Source of the DNA: Eledone cirrhosa
Taxonomy: Eukaryota
Assembly: GCA_964016885.1 (NCBI GenBank)
Contig: CAXHJY010001154.1
Span: 1-51,612, forward strand
DNA length: 51,612 nucleotides
Reading direction: 5' to 3'
In this document: in pieces, positions 907 to 50,850 of the stretch
How positions within the stretch are numbered: the first letter of the stretch is position 1
How the letters are laid out: each line of letters begins with the position of its first letter
Made by a program: the position numbers and the translations under genes
The notes under the pieces: model-generated
What the model was told of the DNA's origin: nothing
Databases searched by the model: none
What the model saw: the letters and a program-made list of their open reading frames with translations, nothing else

Positions 907-2812
907 TTAATTAGGTTTATAATATTTAAATGTTTTTTTTAGTTTATGATTACACGATATAATTAATTCCTGTCGTTTATTTAATAAGATATCCCTAGAC
1001 TTCATTATTTCAAATAGTTCTTGGGAACATAATCTACATTCCTTTCTATTATTTTGATAAGGGGTGGCTCTTTTGAGCACACTCCAGGTCAAATCATATT
1101 TTATATTCTTATTTTTATAACTATTGATTTTTTCTGCTAGAGATGTTGTATTAGCCAGTGCGGCATTTTTAAAACTATGTTTGTGGGTATTAAACCTTGT
1201 CTTAAAATTGTTAGAGGTAGCTCCTATATATGAGCAAATAGAATCTTTAGTTTTAACATTACATTTATAGACTATGTTGTTAACAAGACAATTCCCTTTT
1301 AATGGGCAGTTTGCTTTGTTTCTACAGTTACATCCTTTCGTTAATTCTGTATTTGAGGAGATATTATGGTTAATTTGATGTACTGGTGGTATACTTATGG
1401 TTTTCTTACATTTATATGCATTATATGCACTTATATTTTGTTTTATGTTATTTGTTGTAGAGTATGAGAATTTAACTGTAGACCTATTTAAGATTTGATG
1501 GTATTTGTGGTTTGGCGGGAAGTTTTTCTCAAGGATATAAAAAAATTTTTTAGCAATATTATCCTTAACTTGTAAATTAAAAGGAGCATTATATCAAGTA
1601 ACTCGTCTATTACGGTTTCTATGTTGTTTATTATTTTTATTATTTTTATAGGTTGTATCGTGATTTTTACTAGGAGGATTAATGTTAATGATCTCACCAC
1701 AACTATTTTTAGTTATATTTGTAGATTTAGGTGTTTTATCTTTTTTATTAGGAGTTTTATTATTAATATTTATTATAGTTGTATGATGAGTAGTTTTTTG
1801 AGGGTTACTATACTTTATATTAGAAGATTTAGTATTTTGGGGTATATTGTGGGTGGCATTTAGGTGTGTACTTTTCATTTGGTGTTTGTTGGTAATATTA
1901 TGCTGTATGCTTTCAGTATTTTTAGTAGAAGGTATATACTCTAATCTATTTTTGTGGCCACTTCTATCTAGAGCTTCATTATAAAAGGTCGCATTTTTAT
2001 CAAATACATCTTGGTTAGAAGAAAGGTTAGAAATTCTAAGTGATATATTATATGCAAGGTTTTTAAGGATAGATTTAGGGTGATTAGATTGTGAGTGTAT
2101 GTAATGTAAGTTTTGGTTAGGTTTATGGTAAGGTTGGTAGATACCCGTAGCTAAATCTAAAGTTATATCTAGGAAATTTACTACTTTACTTGTTTTTTCA
2201 AAAGTAATATTAAGATTATAATAGTCTTTAAGGAAAGTTCTAATATGTTTTTTGTTTTTTTCGATTTCTGAAAGGCTACGGTTGTTAGAAAGAAGAAGAC
2301 AGTCATCACGATATAAACCACCTTTGAGGTGGGGAAAAGAGGCATTTATGTTGAAAAGGAGAAAGAGGCCCACAAGATCAGTAATTTGGGCGGAATCGCT
2401 TGAACCCATAGTAATATCAAAAAGATTACTGTATGTGTTTCTGGTCCAGTATTCATTCTGAAATTCAATAAGTGTTAGTCTAGCATGTGTAATAATGTTA
2501 ATGTCATCCAAAGTTAAGCTAGATCTATTTTTAGCAAATATCAATGCTTTGTTCAGGAGTATAGGTGATATAGAAGAATAGTAATTATCTATATCAAATT
2601 GTAGGAAAGAAGCAGAAGATTTACACCTAATATTTTTAAACCAGTTAATTACCTGGGAGGTGTTTTCCCAGAGTGGTAAAATAACGTGTTTTCTTATTTG
2701 TGGGATGACTCTATCTAAAATTTTTTTGCTAATTATTCCAATATCTGATTTGGAGGGACATATAAGTCTAATAGAAGGATTAGAATTAAAGTTAGATTTG
2801 TGATCTTTCAGG
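907..2812 (-). mobile_element. Penelope-like retroelement ORF (RT plus C-terminal GIY-YIG endonuclease), 5'-truncated, one in-frame stop; resembles Hydra-type PLEs
   Basis: One continuous minus frame: LKDHK..P.IRLICPSKSDIG, FLQFDIDNYYSSI, MGSSDSAQITDLVG, GGLYRDD, VNFLDITLDL, YHKPN, YIHSQSNHP. After the TGA at 1594-1596 the frame continues YNAPFN...CNCRNKANCPLKGNCL..IVYK...YIG...KTRFNTH...WSVL..ATPY...CRLC..E...LLNKRQE..CNH and stops at 907. Confidence 0.93.
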
Positions 2813-2886
2813 TTTTAACCCTTTGTGTTTTCATTGGTCAATTTTGAACTGAAATTTTGAATTGTTGTTATTATCAATAAATATAC

Positions 2887-3041: not shown

Positions 3042-3093
3042 CTTTTTTTGTTTAATATAAGGAATTGTTTATTCATTATTTGCTTAATATTTT

Positions 3094-5889
<2,796 letters not shown>

Positions 5890-14910: not shown

Positions 14911-15970
14911 AAAGAGTCGTCGTTGGTTTAAATTCTAGGAAGAAAATGATTAAAATTGTAGAGAAGAGAATGATTAAGAGTAGAGACGGTGAAAGCTTTA
15001 TAAAGATTAATCTATGTCTCGCTGTTCTCTGGGTTGTAAAAAAGGTGTAAGTTATCAGAAAAAGCACTGTTGCCGGAAGTGACCGAATAAATATTTAATA
15101 ATTCTTACATCAACATCAAAATGAACATCCGGTAATGGTAAGTGGTGCCAGTGAGGTCAGAATTTCGCCGAAATGTATTCGTTTCATGTAATAAATGAAG
15201 ATCTAAAGGGATTTTGAAAGATTTTCGGGTAGAAGAAAGGAGCTGTTTGTGGTAGTGGGTAGTTAACTTCAATATTAGTTAAACCACAGTCGGTTGTTAC
15301 TTCCTGTGATCTTACAACATAGCTTCAGTCGATCGCTAGCAGCTGTTTGTATGAAGAACAATTTGGCTGATTTTCTAAACTTTTAAGAGATCATTTCGTC
15401 ATGAATTACCACCATGTTTGACTGCTGTAATATGTCTATATATGTATATAGACATAAATATGCGTGCATGTGTATATATATATATATGCGTATGTGTGAG
15501 TATATATGTACCACTCACTCTCTTTATATATATGTGTGTGTATGTATATACACACACACACGCACACACACATGTATAAAGAGAGAGTGAGTGCTACATA
15601 TATACTCACACACACGCATATATATATATATATATATGTTTGTATGTATATGTATATAAATATATATATATATATATGTGTGTGTGTGTCTGTGTGTATG
15701 TATATGTATGTATGTATATATATATATATAAATATCTGTACGTATGAAAAGGAAAAGAGTGCGTTCAATCGGAAGAGAGCTGATATACTATATATATATA
15801 TATATATATAAATAAATATACACGGGTGTGTATGATTGTGTATAGAAGATTATATTAATAAAAGAAATTCCAACTTTGTCTGATTTACTCGTTTTATTTA
15901 CAATCCTTTAAAATTTATAATGGTATTAGAATGAAATAGTATGGTAGAATATTAAATGTTAAGTGTTAAT

Positions 15971-16009
15971 TGAACAAGTACTTTCATGCTTTCGCAATCT
16001 TCAGGTTCA
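15971..16009 (-). ncRNA. Minimal type I hammerhead ribozyme
   Basis: Minus strand: TGAAC-CTGAAGA-ttgc(gaaa)gcat-GAAA-gtac-tt-GTTCA; palindromic stem III AAGTACTT; CUU triplet. Confidence 0.8.
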
Positions 16010-16081
16010 TGATATGTGGTGACAGTCGAGTTTGCAATTTTCAACTGTGAAAATTGCAAACTTGACTGTCACCACACAATA

Positions 16082-16120
16082 TGAACCTGAATATTGCGAA
16101 AGCATGAAAGTACTTGTTCA
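16082..16120 (+). ncRNA. Mirror copy of the hammerhead with mutated core (CTGAATA)
   Basis: TGAAC-CTGAATA-ttgcgaaagcat-GAAA-gtac-tt-GTTCA. Confidence 0.65.
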
Positions 16121-16250
16121 ATTAACACTTAACATTTAATATTCTACCATACTATTTCATTCTAATACCATTATAAATTTTAAAGGATTGTAAATAAAAC
16201 GAGTAAATCAGACAAAGTTGGAATTCCTTTTATTAATATATATATATATA

Positions 16251-16529: not shown

Positions 16530-16728
16530 CCAGGGAGTGTAACTTGGAGTTACTGTAGGTTCACCCGGGTGAGTACTCGATGTTTAGGTTCACTTCAGTG
16601 TCGAGGTGTAGCGCTAGACAGAGTGTATTATAGTGAAAAGATAACAAGGACGATTGGTTACTCCTTCATTACATTTATTGGTTGGTGACGCGTGTTTCGC
16701 CACTGATCAGCTCAAGGTTCGATCTGTA
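16530..16728 (-). mobile_element. Dispersed repeat, family P (PLE pLTR-like; carries the 3' half of a hammerhead)
   Basis: Homologous to 22306-22806 and 24878-25050; minus strand GAAAC-acgc-GTC-accaaccAATAAA; (TA)n flanks. Confidence 0.6.
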
Positions 16729-16881
16729 TATATATATATATATATATATATAAGACCCCGAAGGCAGAGCTCAAGCCGTGTCGACGGCTATTTCTGGACT
16801 ATTACCAACTCTAATACCCAAGGTATTGAGTACTCTGGTGCGTTATGGTCCACCTGGTTCCTTACCACACTTCCTTCGTTT

Positions 16882-19436: not shown

Positions 19437-19471
<35 letters not shown>

Positions 19472-19473
<2 letters not shown>

Positions 19474-19917
19474 TAGACCTGAAAAATGCGCAAGCTCAAA
19501 AGAGCCACACAATGTTATAATAAACCTTCAAAAGTGTGGGACTAGAGTTGTTGCTCAAAAATATTGTAATCGTTATCTATCGTACACTCTGTGGCATCCT
19601 TTTATAAAAAAAGAGACTCATAACGAACTCAAGACGACACGATAATTATTTAAGCTAATGTTCAATATCTCATATTAGATGTTTAGTAATGATTAATACG
19701 AAATGCACTTAAACCGAATTCTATATTATAAATTAACTTAAATAATTATCGTGTCGTCTTGAGTTCGTTATGAGTCTCTTTTTTATAAAAGGATGCCACA
19801 AGTGTACGATACATAATGATTACAATATTTTTGAGCAACAACTCTAGTCCCACACTTTTGAAGGTTTATTATAACATTCTGTGGCTCTTTTGAGCTTGCG
19901 CATTTTTCAGGTCTAGT
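19472..19917. repeat. Long inverted repeat (~183-bp arms, ~80-bp spacer); fold-back element
   Basis: 19472-19654 is the reverse complement of 19737-19917 with few mismatches; the left arm abuts (TA)n. Confidence 0.93.
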
Positions 19918-20699
19918 TTAATATTTTTTAAGGCAACGCTTGTAATAACTCTAGTTAAACATGATATATATATATATTAATAATAAATTATCGTTGTAAT
20001 GTAATTAGATTATATAATTGTTATTTTATAAATGATCTTATAAATATTATTGTAAGATGTATAAAAATATTTTCAGACTTTTAATAGTTAATATAAATTT
20101 AAAAAAATCATATATAAATTAACAATATAACTTACCAAAACGAGAAAAATATTTTGATGATAAACGACGAAATACTGGAGGATGATTCGAAAGCGATACG
20201 ATAAATAAACGTGGAAACAAAGTGGCGGATGCTTTTGAGCAACAATTACTCTCGTTGGTTGATTAGCCAATAATACGATGAAATTAGCTAATAAGACGAT
20301 ACATTACAAAAGATGTTTGGGAGGCATCACCACGGCCAGCGATACCCCTTGAATTTTTTATTCACAAGCTACGCATGTATGTCATCAACATCAGACACGC
20401 AAACTTAAAACAATCTGTTGTTAGTCACTGCGTGTCTAACAGATATTTGGAATCCTTTTGTTAACCTGTTTAGCTTGCTTCGTTTTTTTGGCTCCGGTGG
20501 CTGATAACTTCATGACCGCCGTTTTCAGTTTGTATGGCCTCTATAATGTATGCTAATTGTTCTGGTCTTATTTTAGTCCATAGAGTGCTTGCTGTATTTC
20601 TCGAAAATTGCGTTTTTCTTTGTTTTTGACCACAGCCGAAATACGATCTCGCTGAAATTATATATGTATATATATATATATATATATATACATATATTA

Positions 20700-21602: not shown

Positions 21603-21733
21603 CAGGGTCACCAGACAAAAAATATAATGAAAATTCATTAGAAATTAGCTTCACAGTTTATATATATATATATATATATATAAGAGAGTATTGAAGTTTC
21701 CTTGAAGCATTGTGGAATATTAAGGTATATTTC

Positions 21734-22284
21734 TTTAAGTCGTTTTGGAAGCCTCAACAATGCAGATGGGTAACTCTCCGGGTAACAAGATCCGGTGGTG
21801 GAGAGAGAGGTGTAAGTGAATGTAGATTGAAATGTATAGTGTGTAGAAGAACGTAGGAAAGAGCGTAAAAAATAAAAATAAAAATAATAACATGAGATAG
21901 AGTTACCTTGGGAGAGATTTAATTGTCCCTATATATTTCGGATTCACATCCATCAACTGGTGGGGGAGGGGAGTTCCGGGGGGGGGGGGTTTGTCTGCCG
22001 GAAAGGTGCGAAACGTATCCTCGTTTCGCACCTTTCCGACAGACAACCCCCCCGAACCCCCCCCCCGTTGATGGATGTGAATCCGAAATATATAGGGACA
22101 ATTAAATCTCTCCCAAGGTAACCCTATCTCGTGTTATTATTTTTATTTTTTACGCTCTTTCCTACGTTCTTCTACACACTATACATTTCAACCTACATTC
22201 ACTTACATCTCTCTCTCCACCACCGGATCTTGTTACCCGGAGAGTTACCCATCTGCATTGTTGAGGCTTCCAAAACGACCTAAA
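21734..22284. repeat. ~550-bp fold-back palindrome with degenerate hammerhead motifs on both arms
   Basis: Arms of about 270 bp around loop TATCCT (22016-22021). The right arm has CCGTTGA-t-ggat(gtga)atcc-GAAA-tata-ta-ggg. This explains the mirror ORFs at 21919-22101 and 21923-22105. Confidence 0.93.
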
Positions 22285-22305
22285 TAAATAAATATATATA
22301 TATAT

Positions 22306-22806
22306 CCAGGGAGTGTAACGCGGAGCTACTGTAGATTCACCCGGGTGAGTACTCGATGTTTAGGTTCACGTCAGTGGCGAGGTGTAGAGCTAGACAGAGT
22401 GTATTATAACAATACAAGGACAAGTGGTTACTCTTTCATTATGTTTATTGGTTGGTGAATTGGCAGTATCGGTGGAGGGTCGGACCTTTACGATGTGAGT
22501 TCAAATCCCGCCGAGGTTAACTTTGCCTTTTATCCTTACGGGGTCGATAAAATAAAGCACCAGTAATGCACTGGGTAATTGCTGGCCTTGTGCCAAAAGT
22601 AGAAACAATTATGTTTATTGGTTGGTGACGCCCGTTTCTCTATTGATCAGGTCAAGGTACGATCTGTATCGATCTAGCCCGACTCTGTACCAAATGGCTC
22701 GTGGAACCTCTTTGGTGGTAATGACAGAATGAGGTCCGACGAACCATTGATTACAGAGTCGGGCTAGATCGATACAGTTCGAACCTTGAGCTGATCAATA
22801 GCGAAA
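22306..22806 (-). mobile_element. Family P repeat with ~170-nt internal hairpin, interrupted by a SINE
   Basis: Matches 16530-16728; hairpin at about 22635-22806. Confidence 0.7.
22459..22607 (+). mobile_element. Family A SINE (internally deleted) with 21-bp TSD
   Basis: TSD ATTATGTTTATTGGTTGGTGA at 22438-22458 and 22608-22628. Confidence 0.9.
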
Positions 22807-22908: not shown

Positions 22909-22918
22909 GTGTAAACAT

Positions 22919-23047
22919 AAAATTTTATATAGAAATGGCTTCTACGTGACTAGAACTGTTTCATTCGAAAGAAATCATCAGGCTTTCTTGATTGTTTTCG
23001 AATGAACCAGTTCTAGTCCTGCAGAAGCCATTTCTATATAAAATTTA
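22919..23047. repeat. ~130-bp fold-back containing a hammerhead core on the minus strand
   Basis: Inverted arms AAATTTTATATAGAAATGGCTTCT..CTAGAACTG.TTCATTCGAAA; minus strand 22953-22981 reads CTGATGA-tttctttcgaat-GAAACAGTT; related copy at 50812. Confidence 0.8.
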
Positions 23048-23057
23048 ATATATATGT

Positions 23058-23606: not shown

Positions 23607-23678
23607 AGGTTCTACCGAGACTCGAACTCGGATCGCTGGATTCAGAGTCCAGAGTGCTAACCATTACACCATAGAACC
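23607..23678 (-). tRNA. tRNA-Gln (anticodon CTG)
   Basis: GGTTCTATGGTGTAATGGTTAGCACTCTGGACTCTGAATCCAGCGATCCGAGTTCGAGTCTCGGTAGAACCT; intact 72-nt cloverleaf with A and B boxes. Confidence 0.97.
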
Positions 23679-50811: not shown

Positions 50812-50850
50812 CTGATGATTTCATAAGAATGAAACAGTTCTAGTCCTGTA
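50812..50850 (+). ncRNA. Hammerhead core, same family as 22953-22981
   Basis: CTGATGA-tttc(ataa)gaat-GAAACAGTTCTAGTC; stem I is not evident. Confidence 0.5.

What the first reader, a model, noticed from the sequence alone, without database searches (positions are those of the whole stretch)
15851..16240. 390-bp fold-back with opposing hammerheads on each arm
Seen: a near-perfect palindrome with a 4-nt loop. The minus-strand HHR is intact (CTGAAGA) and the plus-strand mirror copy is mutated (CTGAATA). The two ribozymes read outward from the centre. Inference: a head-to-head pLTR pair made by fold-back or template-switch priming during PLE reverse transcription. Transcription from either side gives ~190 bp of dsRNA, a substrate for ADAR or Dicer, and sequesters the ribozyme. 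The architecture recurs in unrelated families at 21734 and 22919, which suggests a general non-coding element class.
Basis: partly seen in the sequence, partly recalled or inferred. Interest (0 to 1): 0.75.

Follow-up and report, generated by a model that had tools for sequence, protein, structure and literature searches.

The report
Penelope start-site palindrome, two RNA templates
This 390-base palindrome is two back-to-back copies of the hammerhead-bearing front end of a common Penelope-like jumping gene, a known kind of insertion that recurs at hundreds of places in this genome, and its two arms come from different subfamilies, which points to a likely origin from two separately primed reverse transcripts rather than one strand folding back.

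Summary
The palindrome is real (15851-16240, 4-nt loop, 6 arm differences). Each arm is the first ~195 nt of the pLTR of a 4.2-kb Penelope-like element (PLE) with RT and C-terminal GIY-YIG. The left arm alone carries the 36-nt PLE 'tail'. Both ends sit in (TA)n. The centre lies at the element's predicted transcription start, and an estimated 830 loci share it. Longer head-to-head pairs also occur, so this is an insertion by-product, not a new element class. The G-to-T core change is private to this copy. Simple fold-back fits poorly: 66 of 75 palindromes have exactly one tail, but either arm can be the longer one (10 vs 11), and 8 of 66 pairs, this one included, have arms from different subfamilies. 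Likely mechanism: two target-primed cDNAs from two start sites, joined at their 3' ends. Inverted pLTRs, tails and opposed hammerheads are published; this scan reached the same reading earlier on other DNA of this genome. Cleavage, transcription, dsRNA and editing are untested. The 21734 palindrome has no canonical hammerhead.

The parts
15790..15814 (-). (TA)n run at the left end: element's internal TA run (inferred start site B) merging with the target microsatellite
   Evidence: in full-length copies a short TA run follows the tail just before the ORF1 ATG
15815..15850 (-). 36-nt PLE 'tail', present on this arm only
   Evidence: continuous with the 5' UTR in full-length copies; one-sided in 66 of 75 palindromes
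15851..16045 (-). Left arm: pLTR nt 1-195; inner block (nt 18, 32, 34, 35) of the youngest subfamily on an outer block of another subfamily; private C181T
15971..16009 (-). Type I minimal-hammerhead motif: helix I 5 bp, CUGAAGA, helix II with U.U plus 3 bp and GAAA loop, GAAA, palindromic AAGUACUU helix III; predicted cleavage between 15976 and 15975
   Evidence: read from sequence; helices I and II appear in the fold; core; activity untested
16044..16048 (.). Junction: 4-nt loop with 1-nt microhomology; the A at 16046 (minus) is the predicted +1 of the element's RNA
   Evidence: TATA-like box 31-33 nt upstream in long copies; this junction type matches 172 places
16048..16240 (+). Right arm: pLTR nt 3-195, no tail, ends at TTAATATA (inferred start site A); haplotype of a different subfamily
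16082..16120 (+). Mirror hammerhead motif with private G8-to-U change at 16092
   Evidence: G47T; family contigs read G at 16092 (374718 of 375250 summed depth in X1)
16241..16250 (+). (TA)n target run at the right end

Best explanation
The palindrome is a head-to-head pair of pLTR front ends from an autonomous Penelope-like retrotransposon, likely made in one insertion by two separately target-primed reverse transcripts that were joined at their 3' ends. Shown: the arms are pLTR nt 1-195 of a 4.2-kb RT/GIY-YIG element; one arm has the tail; ends lie in (TA)n; the centre recurs at one position; the arms of this copy carry different subfamily haplotypes. Inferred: the endonuclease nicks both strands of a (TA)n target; one nick primes at a TA-rich site ~195 nt from the RNA 5' end (no tail), the other ~50 nt further on (tail); both cDNAs run to the RNA's 5' end at the predicted start site and are joined by 0-3 nt microhomology or short filler. 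Priming in the downstream pLTR gives the long asymmetric pairs. Usually both cDNAs come from one RNA or one source locus; in at least about 12% a second RNA is involved, by separate priming or by a template switch. The hammerheads are passengers and the palindrome is a likely dead end that lacks the upstream TATA box.
For: Parent element: RVT_1 E 2e-6 and GIY-YIG E 3e-5; full-length pLTR-ORF-pLTR copies. Abundance: 5362 exact core matches, control 0; 1400 strand matches to the junction pattern, about 830 loci. Centre: 13 of 24 unselected head-to-head pairs within 25 nt of the predicted start, 11 longer. Exactly one tail in 66 of 75 (8 none, 1 two; P = 8e-12 against 50%). No nesting of arms: tail arm longer 10, no-tail arm longer 11, equal 20, of 41 one-tail pairs; natural junction bases on the tail arm 34, on the no-tail arm 31, of 65. 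Arms differ at 2 or more subfamily-diagnostic sites in 8 of 66 pairs, 0.13-1.1 expected from point mutation. The window's mixed haplotype occurs 5 times in the genome; in the 4 loci with two arms (window included) the partner differs at diagnostic sites. In vitro, an anole PLE protein cleaves and extends both strands and starts RT at two internal sites that bound the tail (PMC11167929, parts 1-2 of 4 read).
Against: Arms are mostly concordant: 45 of 66 pairs agree at all 12 diagnostic columns (45 differences vs 319 permuted), as fold-back would also give. Two double variants tested occur only in the two arms of their own locus (2 of 2), which needs one template molecule, later arm-to-arm conversion or polishing. 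Discordant arms could come from later ectopic gene conversion. 41 of 116 junction-selected loci were dropped because one arm was truncated, interrupted or under 90% identical. The start site is inferred from TATA/Inr-like spacing only; the same bases also resemble a 3' splice site. The in vitro data come from another clade.
Confidence: 0.7

Rival explanations
1. Fold-back or self-priming: one cDNA (or an antisense RNA, as proposed in PMC3846280) turns back at the start-site end and copies itself, then jumps to the other target strand at the first TA-rich site.
For: Explains the one-tail rule, the general arm concordance and the locus-unique variants shared by both arms. Published interpretation (PMC3846280 Discussion read).
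Against: A copied arm must be contained in its template arm, yet the no-tail arm reaches further inward in 11 of 21 unequal pairs, by up to kilobases (L149, L152, L061); junction polarity is 34:31; 8 of 66 pairs have arms of different subfamilies. It survives only with added template jumps or later deletions and conversions.
Confidence: 0.18
2. The palindrome is itself a mobile unit (MITE-like or a non-autonomous hammerhead element) copied as a whole.
For: The centre clusters tightly: two junction types dominate the 100 rows listed; about 830 loci.
Against: The same junction occurs on many subfamily haplotypes, with the tail on either side; centres grade into long asymmetric pairs; arms are pieces of a coding PLE. 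By contrast the 19464 family does keep a fixed 88-nt spacer.
Confidence: 0.05
3. A selected regulatory device: a dsRNA source or ribozyme switch kept by the host.
For: Read-through RNA is predicted to form a 193-bp hairpin that masks the ribozyme.
Against: Core positions decay at the background rate in palindromes (13 of 1444 vs 226 of 19853); the locus lies among repeats and no host gene was evident among ORFs of 170 aa or more, read by eye (not scanned against families).
Confidence: 0.04
4. Chimeric-read or assembly artefact.
For: Unplaced 51.6-kb contig; no contig of the four runs laid spans arm and flank (uninformative).
Against: Arms differ at 6 sites, 4 of them subfamily-diagnostic; one-sided tail and distinct flanks; hundreds of like loci on large contigs.
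Confidence: 0.03

Closest known systems
EN+ Penelope-like element insertions with inverted 5'-truncated pLTR and one-sided 30-40-bp tail (PMC8557442 passages and Fig. 2 legend; PMC3846280 passages and Discussion)
   Same: Head-to-head pLTRs, tail at one end, TATA and Inr-like motifs in the pLTR, (TA)n targets, C-terminal GIY-YIG parent.
   Different: Here the minimal form (no ORF, centre at the predicted RNA start) is very frequent, and arm haplotypes and arm lengths argue against the self-priming reading given in PMC3846280.
Minimal hammerheads of metazoan PLE pLTRs (PMC4209133, parts 1-2 of 4 read)
   Same: Type I core in the pLTR, short helix I, extra base after A9, palindromic helix III; that paper already notes dual motifs 100-700 bp apart on opposite strands.
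   Different: No G10.1-C11.1 pair (U.U instead), short helix II (3 bp), CUU triplet; activity unknown.
PAc Poseidon element in vitro (PMC11167929, parts 1-2 of 4 read)
   Same: Two internal RT start sites that bound the tail, both strands cut and extended, AT-rich target, predicted dimer.
   Different: Different clade; start sites lie in the ORF there and in the 5' UTR here; a term count found 'inverted' once in that paper, read as a blocked oligo end, so it does not link its result to inverted pLTRs.
L1 twin priming (recalled, not from a call)
   Same: Two primers from one break copy the RNA and the cDNAs are joined by microhomology.
   Different: L1 primes far apart and gives an inversion of non-overlapping parts; here the sites are about 50 nt apart, so both cDNAs cover the same stretch and give an inverted repeat.
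Non-LTR retrozymes (10.64898/2026.07.22.740005, passages)
   Same: Non-coding, hammerhead-bearing, related to pLTRs.
   Different: Retrozymes are tandem head-to-tail units; this is a head-to-head stub of an autonomous element.

Membership tests
EN+ PLE insertion with inverted pLTR | Arms are the terminal repeat of an element encoding RT and GIY-YIG endonuclease | tested here: met
EN+ PLE insertion with inverted pLTR | Head-to-head orientation of the inverted copy | tested here: met
   window; 24 head-to-head, 0 tail-to-tail, 3 direct among neighbours under 10 kb in 100 listed matches
EN+ PLE insertion with inverted pLTR | 30-40-bp tail at one end only | tested here: met
   36 nt at 15815-15850; 66 of 75 loci
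EN+ PLE insertion with inverted pLTR | Partial-tandem full-length copies with direct pLTRs | tested here: met
   L096-L102, L149, L153
EN+ PLE insertion with inverted pLTR | Target-site duplication | tested here: inconclusive
   both ends merge into (TA)n; no duplication can be read
Neptune/Nematis-type PLE (parent) | C-terminal GIY-YIG with upstream CX2-5CxxC linker and CCHH motif (PMC8557442) | tested here: met
   domain order; CX4CxxC linker and two Cys plus two His read by eye in the translation
Neptune/Nematis-type PLE (parent) | Placement in the RT tree | not tested
   no reference proteins were fetched
Minimal PLE hammerhead (PMC4209133) | CUGANGA / GAAA / UH core with type I helix I | tested here: met
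   minus arm; plus arm has G8U
Minimal PLE hammerhead (PMC4209133) | Palindromic 15.2-16.2 and loop 3; extra base after A9 | tested here: met
   AAGUACUU and U after the core, read from the sequence
Minimal PLE hammerhead (PMC4209133) | G10.1-C11.1 pair | tested here: not met
   U.U closes helix II family-wide; so hammerhead-like variant, membership as an active ribozyme not claimed
Minimal PLE hammerhead (PMC4209133) | Self-cleavage (as dimer or protein-assisted) | not testable with these tools
   no RNA data; indirect only: none of 12 subfamily-diagnostic columns falls in nt 36-86, P about 0.016
MITE-like clonal palindrome | Fixed centre with both arms and polarity co-inherited | tested here: not met
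Non-LTR retrozyme | Tandem head-to-tail non-coding units without an own ORF | tested here: not met
   head-to-head; arms belong to a coding element

The most novel reading that the evidence does not exclude
PLE integration is a two-primer reaction on an RNA dimer: the palindromic helix III of the hammerhead holds two element RNAs together, each target strand primes at its own start site, and cleavage or RT jumping at the hammerhead swaps 5' ends between subfamilies. The window's left arm (youngest-subfamily nt 18-35 on another subfamily's nt 87-195, crossover across the ribozyme) would be a fossil of that event, giving the pLTR hammerhead a role in copackaging and recombination.
Probability: 0.12. 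Interest if true: 0.75.

Novelty: new member of a known kind. Interest (0 to 1): 0.38.

Why it matters
The structure is known; how PLEs make inverted pLTRs is still called an open question (PMC8557442 passage). Hundreds of start-site palindromes with subfamily-marked arms are a natural data set that separates self-priming from two-primer integration, and the counts here favour two primers and sometimes two RNAs. They also predict the element's start site and both RT start sites to within a few bases, which makes an in vitro test direct. As possible dsRNA sources they matter only if transcribed, which is untested.

Tried and rejected
Rfam: no hammerhead family listed; miRNA-family matches are hairpin or microsatellite noise. 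My first strict hammerhead scan missed the motif because it required a paired 10.1-11.1. Isolated hammerhead folding is not better than shuffles (z 0.68, 0.15, 0.26). T181 seemed to differ between arms systematically in query-picked loci; it vanished with the other arm as query and was not a diagnostic column in junction-selected loci: selection bias, rejected. Centre-ward enrichment of variants shared by both arms looked strong in 30 pairs but weakened in 66 (Fisher P 0.15, rank P 0.015); pairs with 2 or more shared rare variants have fewer one-arm differences (1.6 vs 4.0, P 0.02), a hint of arm homogenisation, not established; A-to-G excess among shared variants (5 vs 3 T-to-C) is too small to suggest editing. 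One search miscalled tails (BLAST ran across TA runs) and was replaced. RNA: no RNA holder listed. Contigs of 4 runs did not span the arm-flank junction. tblastn of the parent's two ORFs against the window and 40 loci of the 22917 and 21728 families found nothing at E 1e-3, so no parent was linked to them. ORF1 has no Pfam match above cut-off. No complex or structure jobs were run. Literature: 4 searches; none listed a paper that applies twin priming to PLE pLTRs, but the library lacks most subscription papers; of PMC8557442 supplements only one file, two terms, first places were seen.

Full report
Observation. The best fold-back centre lies between 16045 and 16046, with 192 of 205 positions paired against 80 for the next centre; the arms differ at 6 substitutions and enclose a 4-nt loop. 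The predicted hairpin is -290 kcal/mol, z = -45. CTGAAGA begins at 16004 on the minus strand and CTGAATA at 16087 on the plus strand. Read by eye, the minus motif is a type I hammerhead: 5-bp helix I, core, helix II of U.U plus 3 bp with a GAAA loop, GAAA, and an 8-nt palindrome as helix III, cleaving after CUU. Helices I and II appear in the fold, which is no more stable than shuffles. Rfam lists no hammerhead here.

What the arms are. Searches of the own genome with each arm gave copies at 96-99% identity. Some continue inward into an ORF with RT and GIY-YIG matches. Full-length 4.2-kb elements with direct pLTRs exist. In them the arm is followed by a 36-nt stretch, a short TA run and the ORF1 ATG. 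So the arm is pLTR nt 1-195, and the window's left arm continues through that stretch (15815-15850) into (TA)n, while the right arm stops at TTAATATA and meets (TA)n. This is the published PLE insertion: inverted truncated copy at the 5' end, 30-40-bp tail at one end (PMC8557442 passages; PMC3846280 passages). Opposed hammerheads 100-700 bp apart are noted in PMC4209133. The parent has a C-terminal endonuclease with a CX4CxxC linker, which fits Neptune or Nematis as described in PMC8557442; no tree was built.

Abundance and centre. An exact 38-mer over the hammerhead matches 5362 times, control 0. Among the first 100 listed, neighbours under 10 kb are 24 head-to-head, 3 direct and 0 tail-to-tail; 13 of the 24 are centred within 25 nt of pLTR nt 1 and 11 are longer. 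A junction pattern gives 1400 strand matches; 59 distinct loci per 100 rows (counted by eye) gives about 830 loci; the window's exact junction type matches 172 places. In long copies a TATA-like box lies 31-33 nt upstream of the A in CAGTT at this point, so I infer that the centre is the RNA's 5' end. This is not shown by RNA data, and the same bases resemble a splice acceptor.

Unit or by-product. I examined 116 loci (the window plus 115 picked by junction pattern; all such loci that I fetched, of about 830); 41 were dropped because one arm was under 90% identical over nt 15-195. Of 75, 66 have one tail, 8 none, 1 two. The same junctions occur on many subfamily haplotypes, and the arm that carries the natural junction bases is the tail arm in 34 and the other in 31 of 65. 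The palindrome is therefore remade at each insertion and is not a clonal unit.

Fold-back versus two primers. A fold-back copy must be contained in its template arm. Of 43 other pairs (23 unselected, 20 picked by similarity), 41 had one tail, 1 none, 1 could not be scored; the tail arm reached further inward in 10, the no-tail arm in 11, and 20 were equal (which replaces the faulty). Several no-tail arms are longer by 0.6-3.7 kb. At 12 subfamily-diagnostic columns, 45 of 66 pairs agree fully, 13 differ at one and 8 at two or more; point mutation predicts 0.13-1.1 of the last. The window is one of the 8: its left arm has the youngest subfamily's bases at nt 18, 32, 34 and 35 on another subfamily's outer part, which the right arm shares. 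A 76-mer spanning this mixed haplotype occurs 5 times in the genome; the loci differ in their outer blocks, and in the 4 with two arms the partner differs at diagnostic sites, which suggests independent crossovers rather than a subfamily. Against this: overall concordance is high (45 vs 319 permuted differences), and two double variants occur only in both arms of their own locus. One RNA read twice, later arm-to-arm conversion or polishing could each explain that; pairs with shared rare variants have fewer one-arm differences (P 0.02), which leans to homogenisation.

Mechanism. Shown: anatomy, parent, one-tail rule, non-nested arms, discordant arms. From published work on another clade: both strands cut and extended, two internal RT start sites that bound the tail, ribozyme cleavage not needed for insertion in vitro (PMC11167929). 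Inferred: each nicked strand of a (TA)n target primes at one of two TA-rich sites in the 5' UTR, both cDNAs run off the RNA's 5' end and are joined. Independent choice of sites would give 50% one-tail pairs, against 88% seen, so the two events are likely coordinated.

The ribozyme and dsRNA claims. The G8U change is private: the family reads G at 16092 in contigs of three runs, and 119 of 132 arms keep all 11 core positions. Core positions decay at the background rate in palindromes (0.9% vs 1.1%), while no diagnostic change of the active lineage falls in nt 36-86 (P about 0.016), so constraint seems to act in the element and not in the stubs. G8 changes abolish cleavage in the anole element (G8C). 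Any read-through RNA is predicted to bury the motif; transcription, editing and small RNAs are untested.

Other palindromes. The 22917 family repeats the anatomy: outward hammerhead core, slightly variable centre, one-sided extension, TA flank (20 loci). The 21728 family has a one-sided extension and a variable centre but no canonical core. The 19464 family keeps an 88-nt spacer in most of 20 loci and has no core. No parent ORF was linked to the first two. A shared insertion route is plausible for the first two; a new element class is not needed.

Earlier notes of this scan (unchecked AI notes) reached the start-site and two-primer reading on other pieces of this genome; I had stated my reading before opening them. 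They are not independent support. One of them names the host as an octopus; I did not check that.

Verdict. Real, and a new member of a known kind. The value lies in the haplotype and arm-length counts that bear on how PLEs make inverted pLTRs. Interest 0.38.

Noticed in passing
L096:1823-3169 and 3079-5403 (also L097, L098, L102): The parent PLE has two overlapping ORFs (449 aa, no Pfam match; 775 aa RT plus GIY-YIG) in the -1 frame, with an in-frame T TTT TTA heptamer found in every locus listed; likely a programmed frameshift. PMC8557442 Fig. 1 legend mentions a frameshifted ORF1 in some PLE types; no strong downstream structure was predicted.
   Followed up: partly
window 19464-19924 and on to about 20450: Inverted repeat of about 190 bp with an 88-nt spacer kept in most of 20 loci, its orientation flipped in one; relatives continue into the sequence to the right (19 of 19 loci). 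Looks like a clonal element of another kind; no hammerhead core.
   Followed up: partly
window 21728-22290: Head-to-head family with one-sided extension, poly-C tract and variable centre; has a GGAT-GTGA-ATCC hairpin followed by GAAA and TATATA but no CUGANGA. Possible half-core; parent not found.
   Followed up: partly
window 22917-23049; related copy near 50812: Second hammerhead palindrome family, also with U.U closing helix II; centre lies directly 5' of the core.
   Followed up: partly
window 22635-22806: Further 172-bp fold-back at 82% with CTGATCA plus 5 nt plus GAAA on both strands; related sequence at 16668-16729.
   Followed up: no
window 907-2814 (minus): Two adjacent ORFs with YRDD and a YIG-type motif, read by eye as another PLE with C-terminal endonuclease; a CTGAAGA lies at 2897 on the plus strand.
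   Followed up: no
window 39712 (plus): Canonical-looking hammerhead with paired helix II found by the strict scan.
   Followed up: no
window 23607-23678 (minus): tRNA gene, Rfam RF00005 at 67.7 bits; anticodon read as CUG (Gln).
   Followed up: no
L189, L211: Palindromes with no one-arm differences in the scored range but two variants each that occur nowhere else in the genome, suggesting arm-to-arm homogenisation or one template molecule.
   Followed up: partly
L153: Head-to-head pair of two near-full-length elements, both starting at about pLTR nt 70, which is the predicted hammerhead cleavage site; L104 also begins at nt 69. Possible trace of cleavage in vivo; not counted genome-wide.
   Followed up: no
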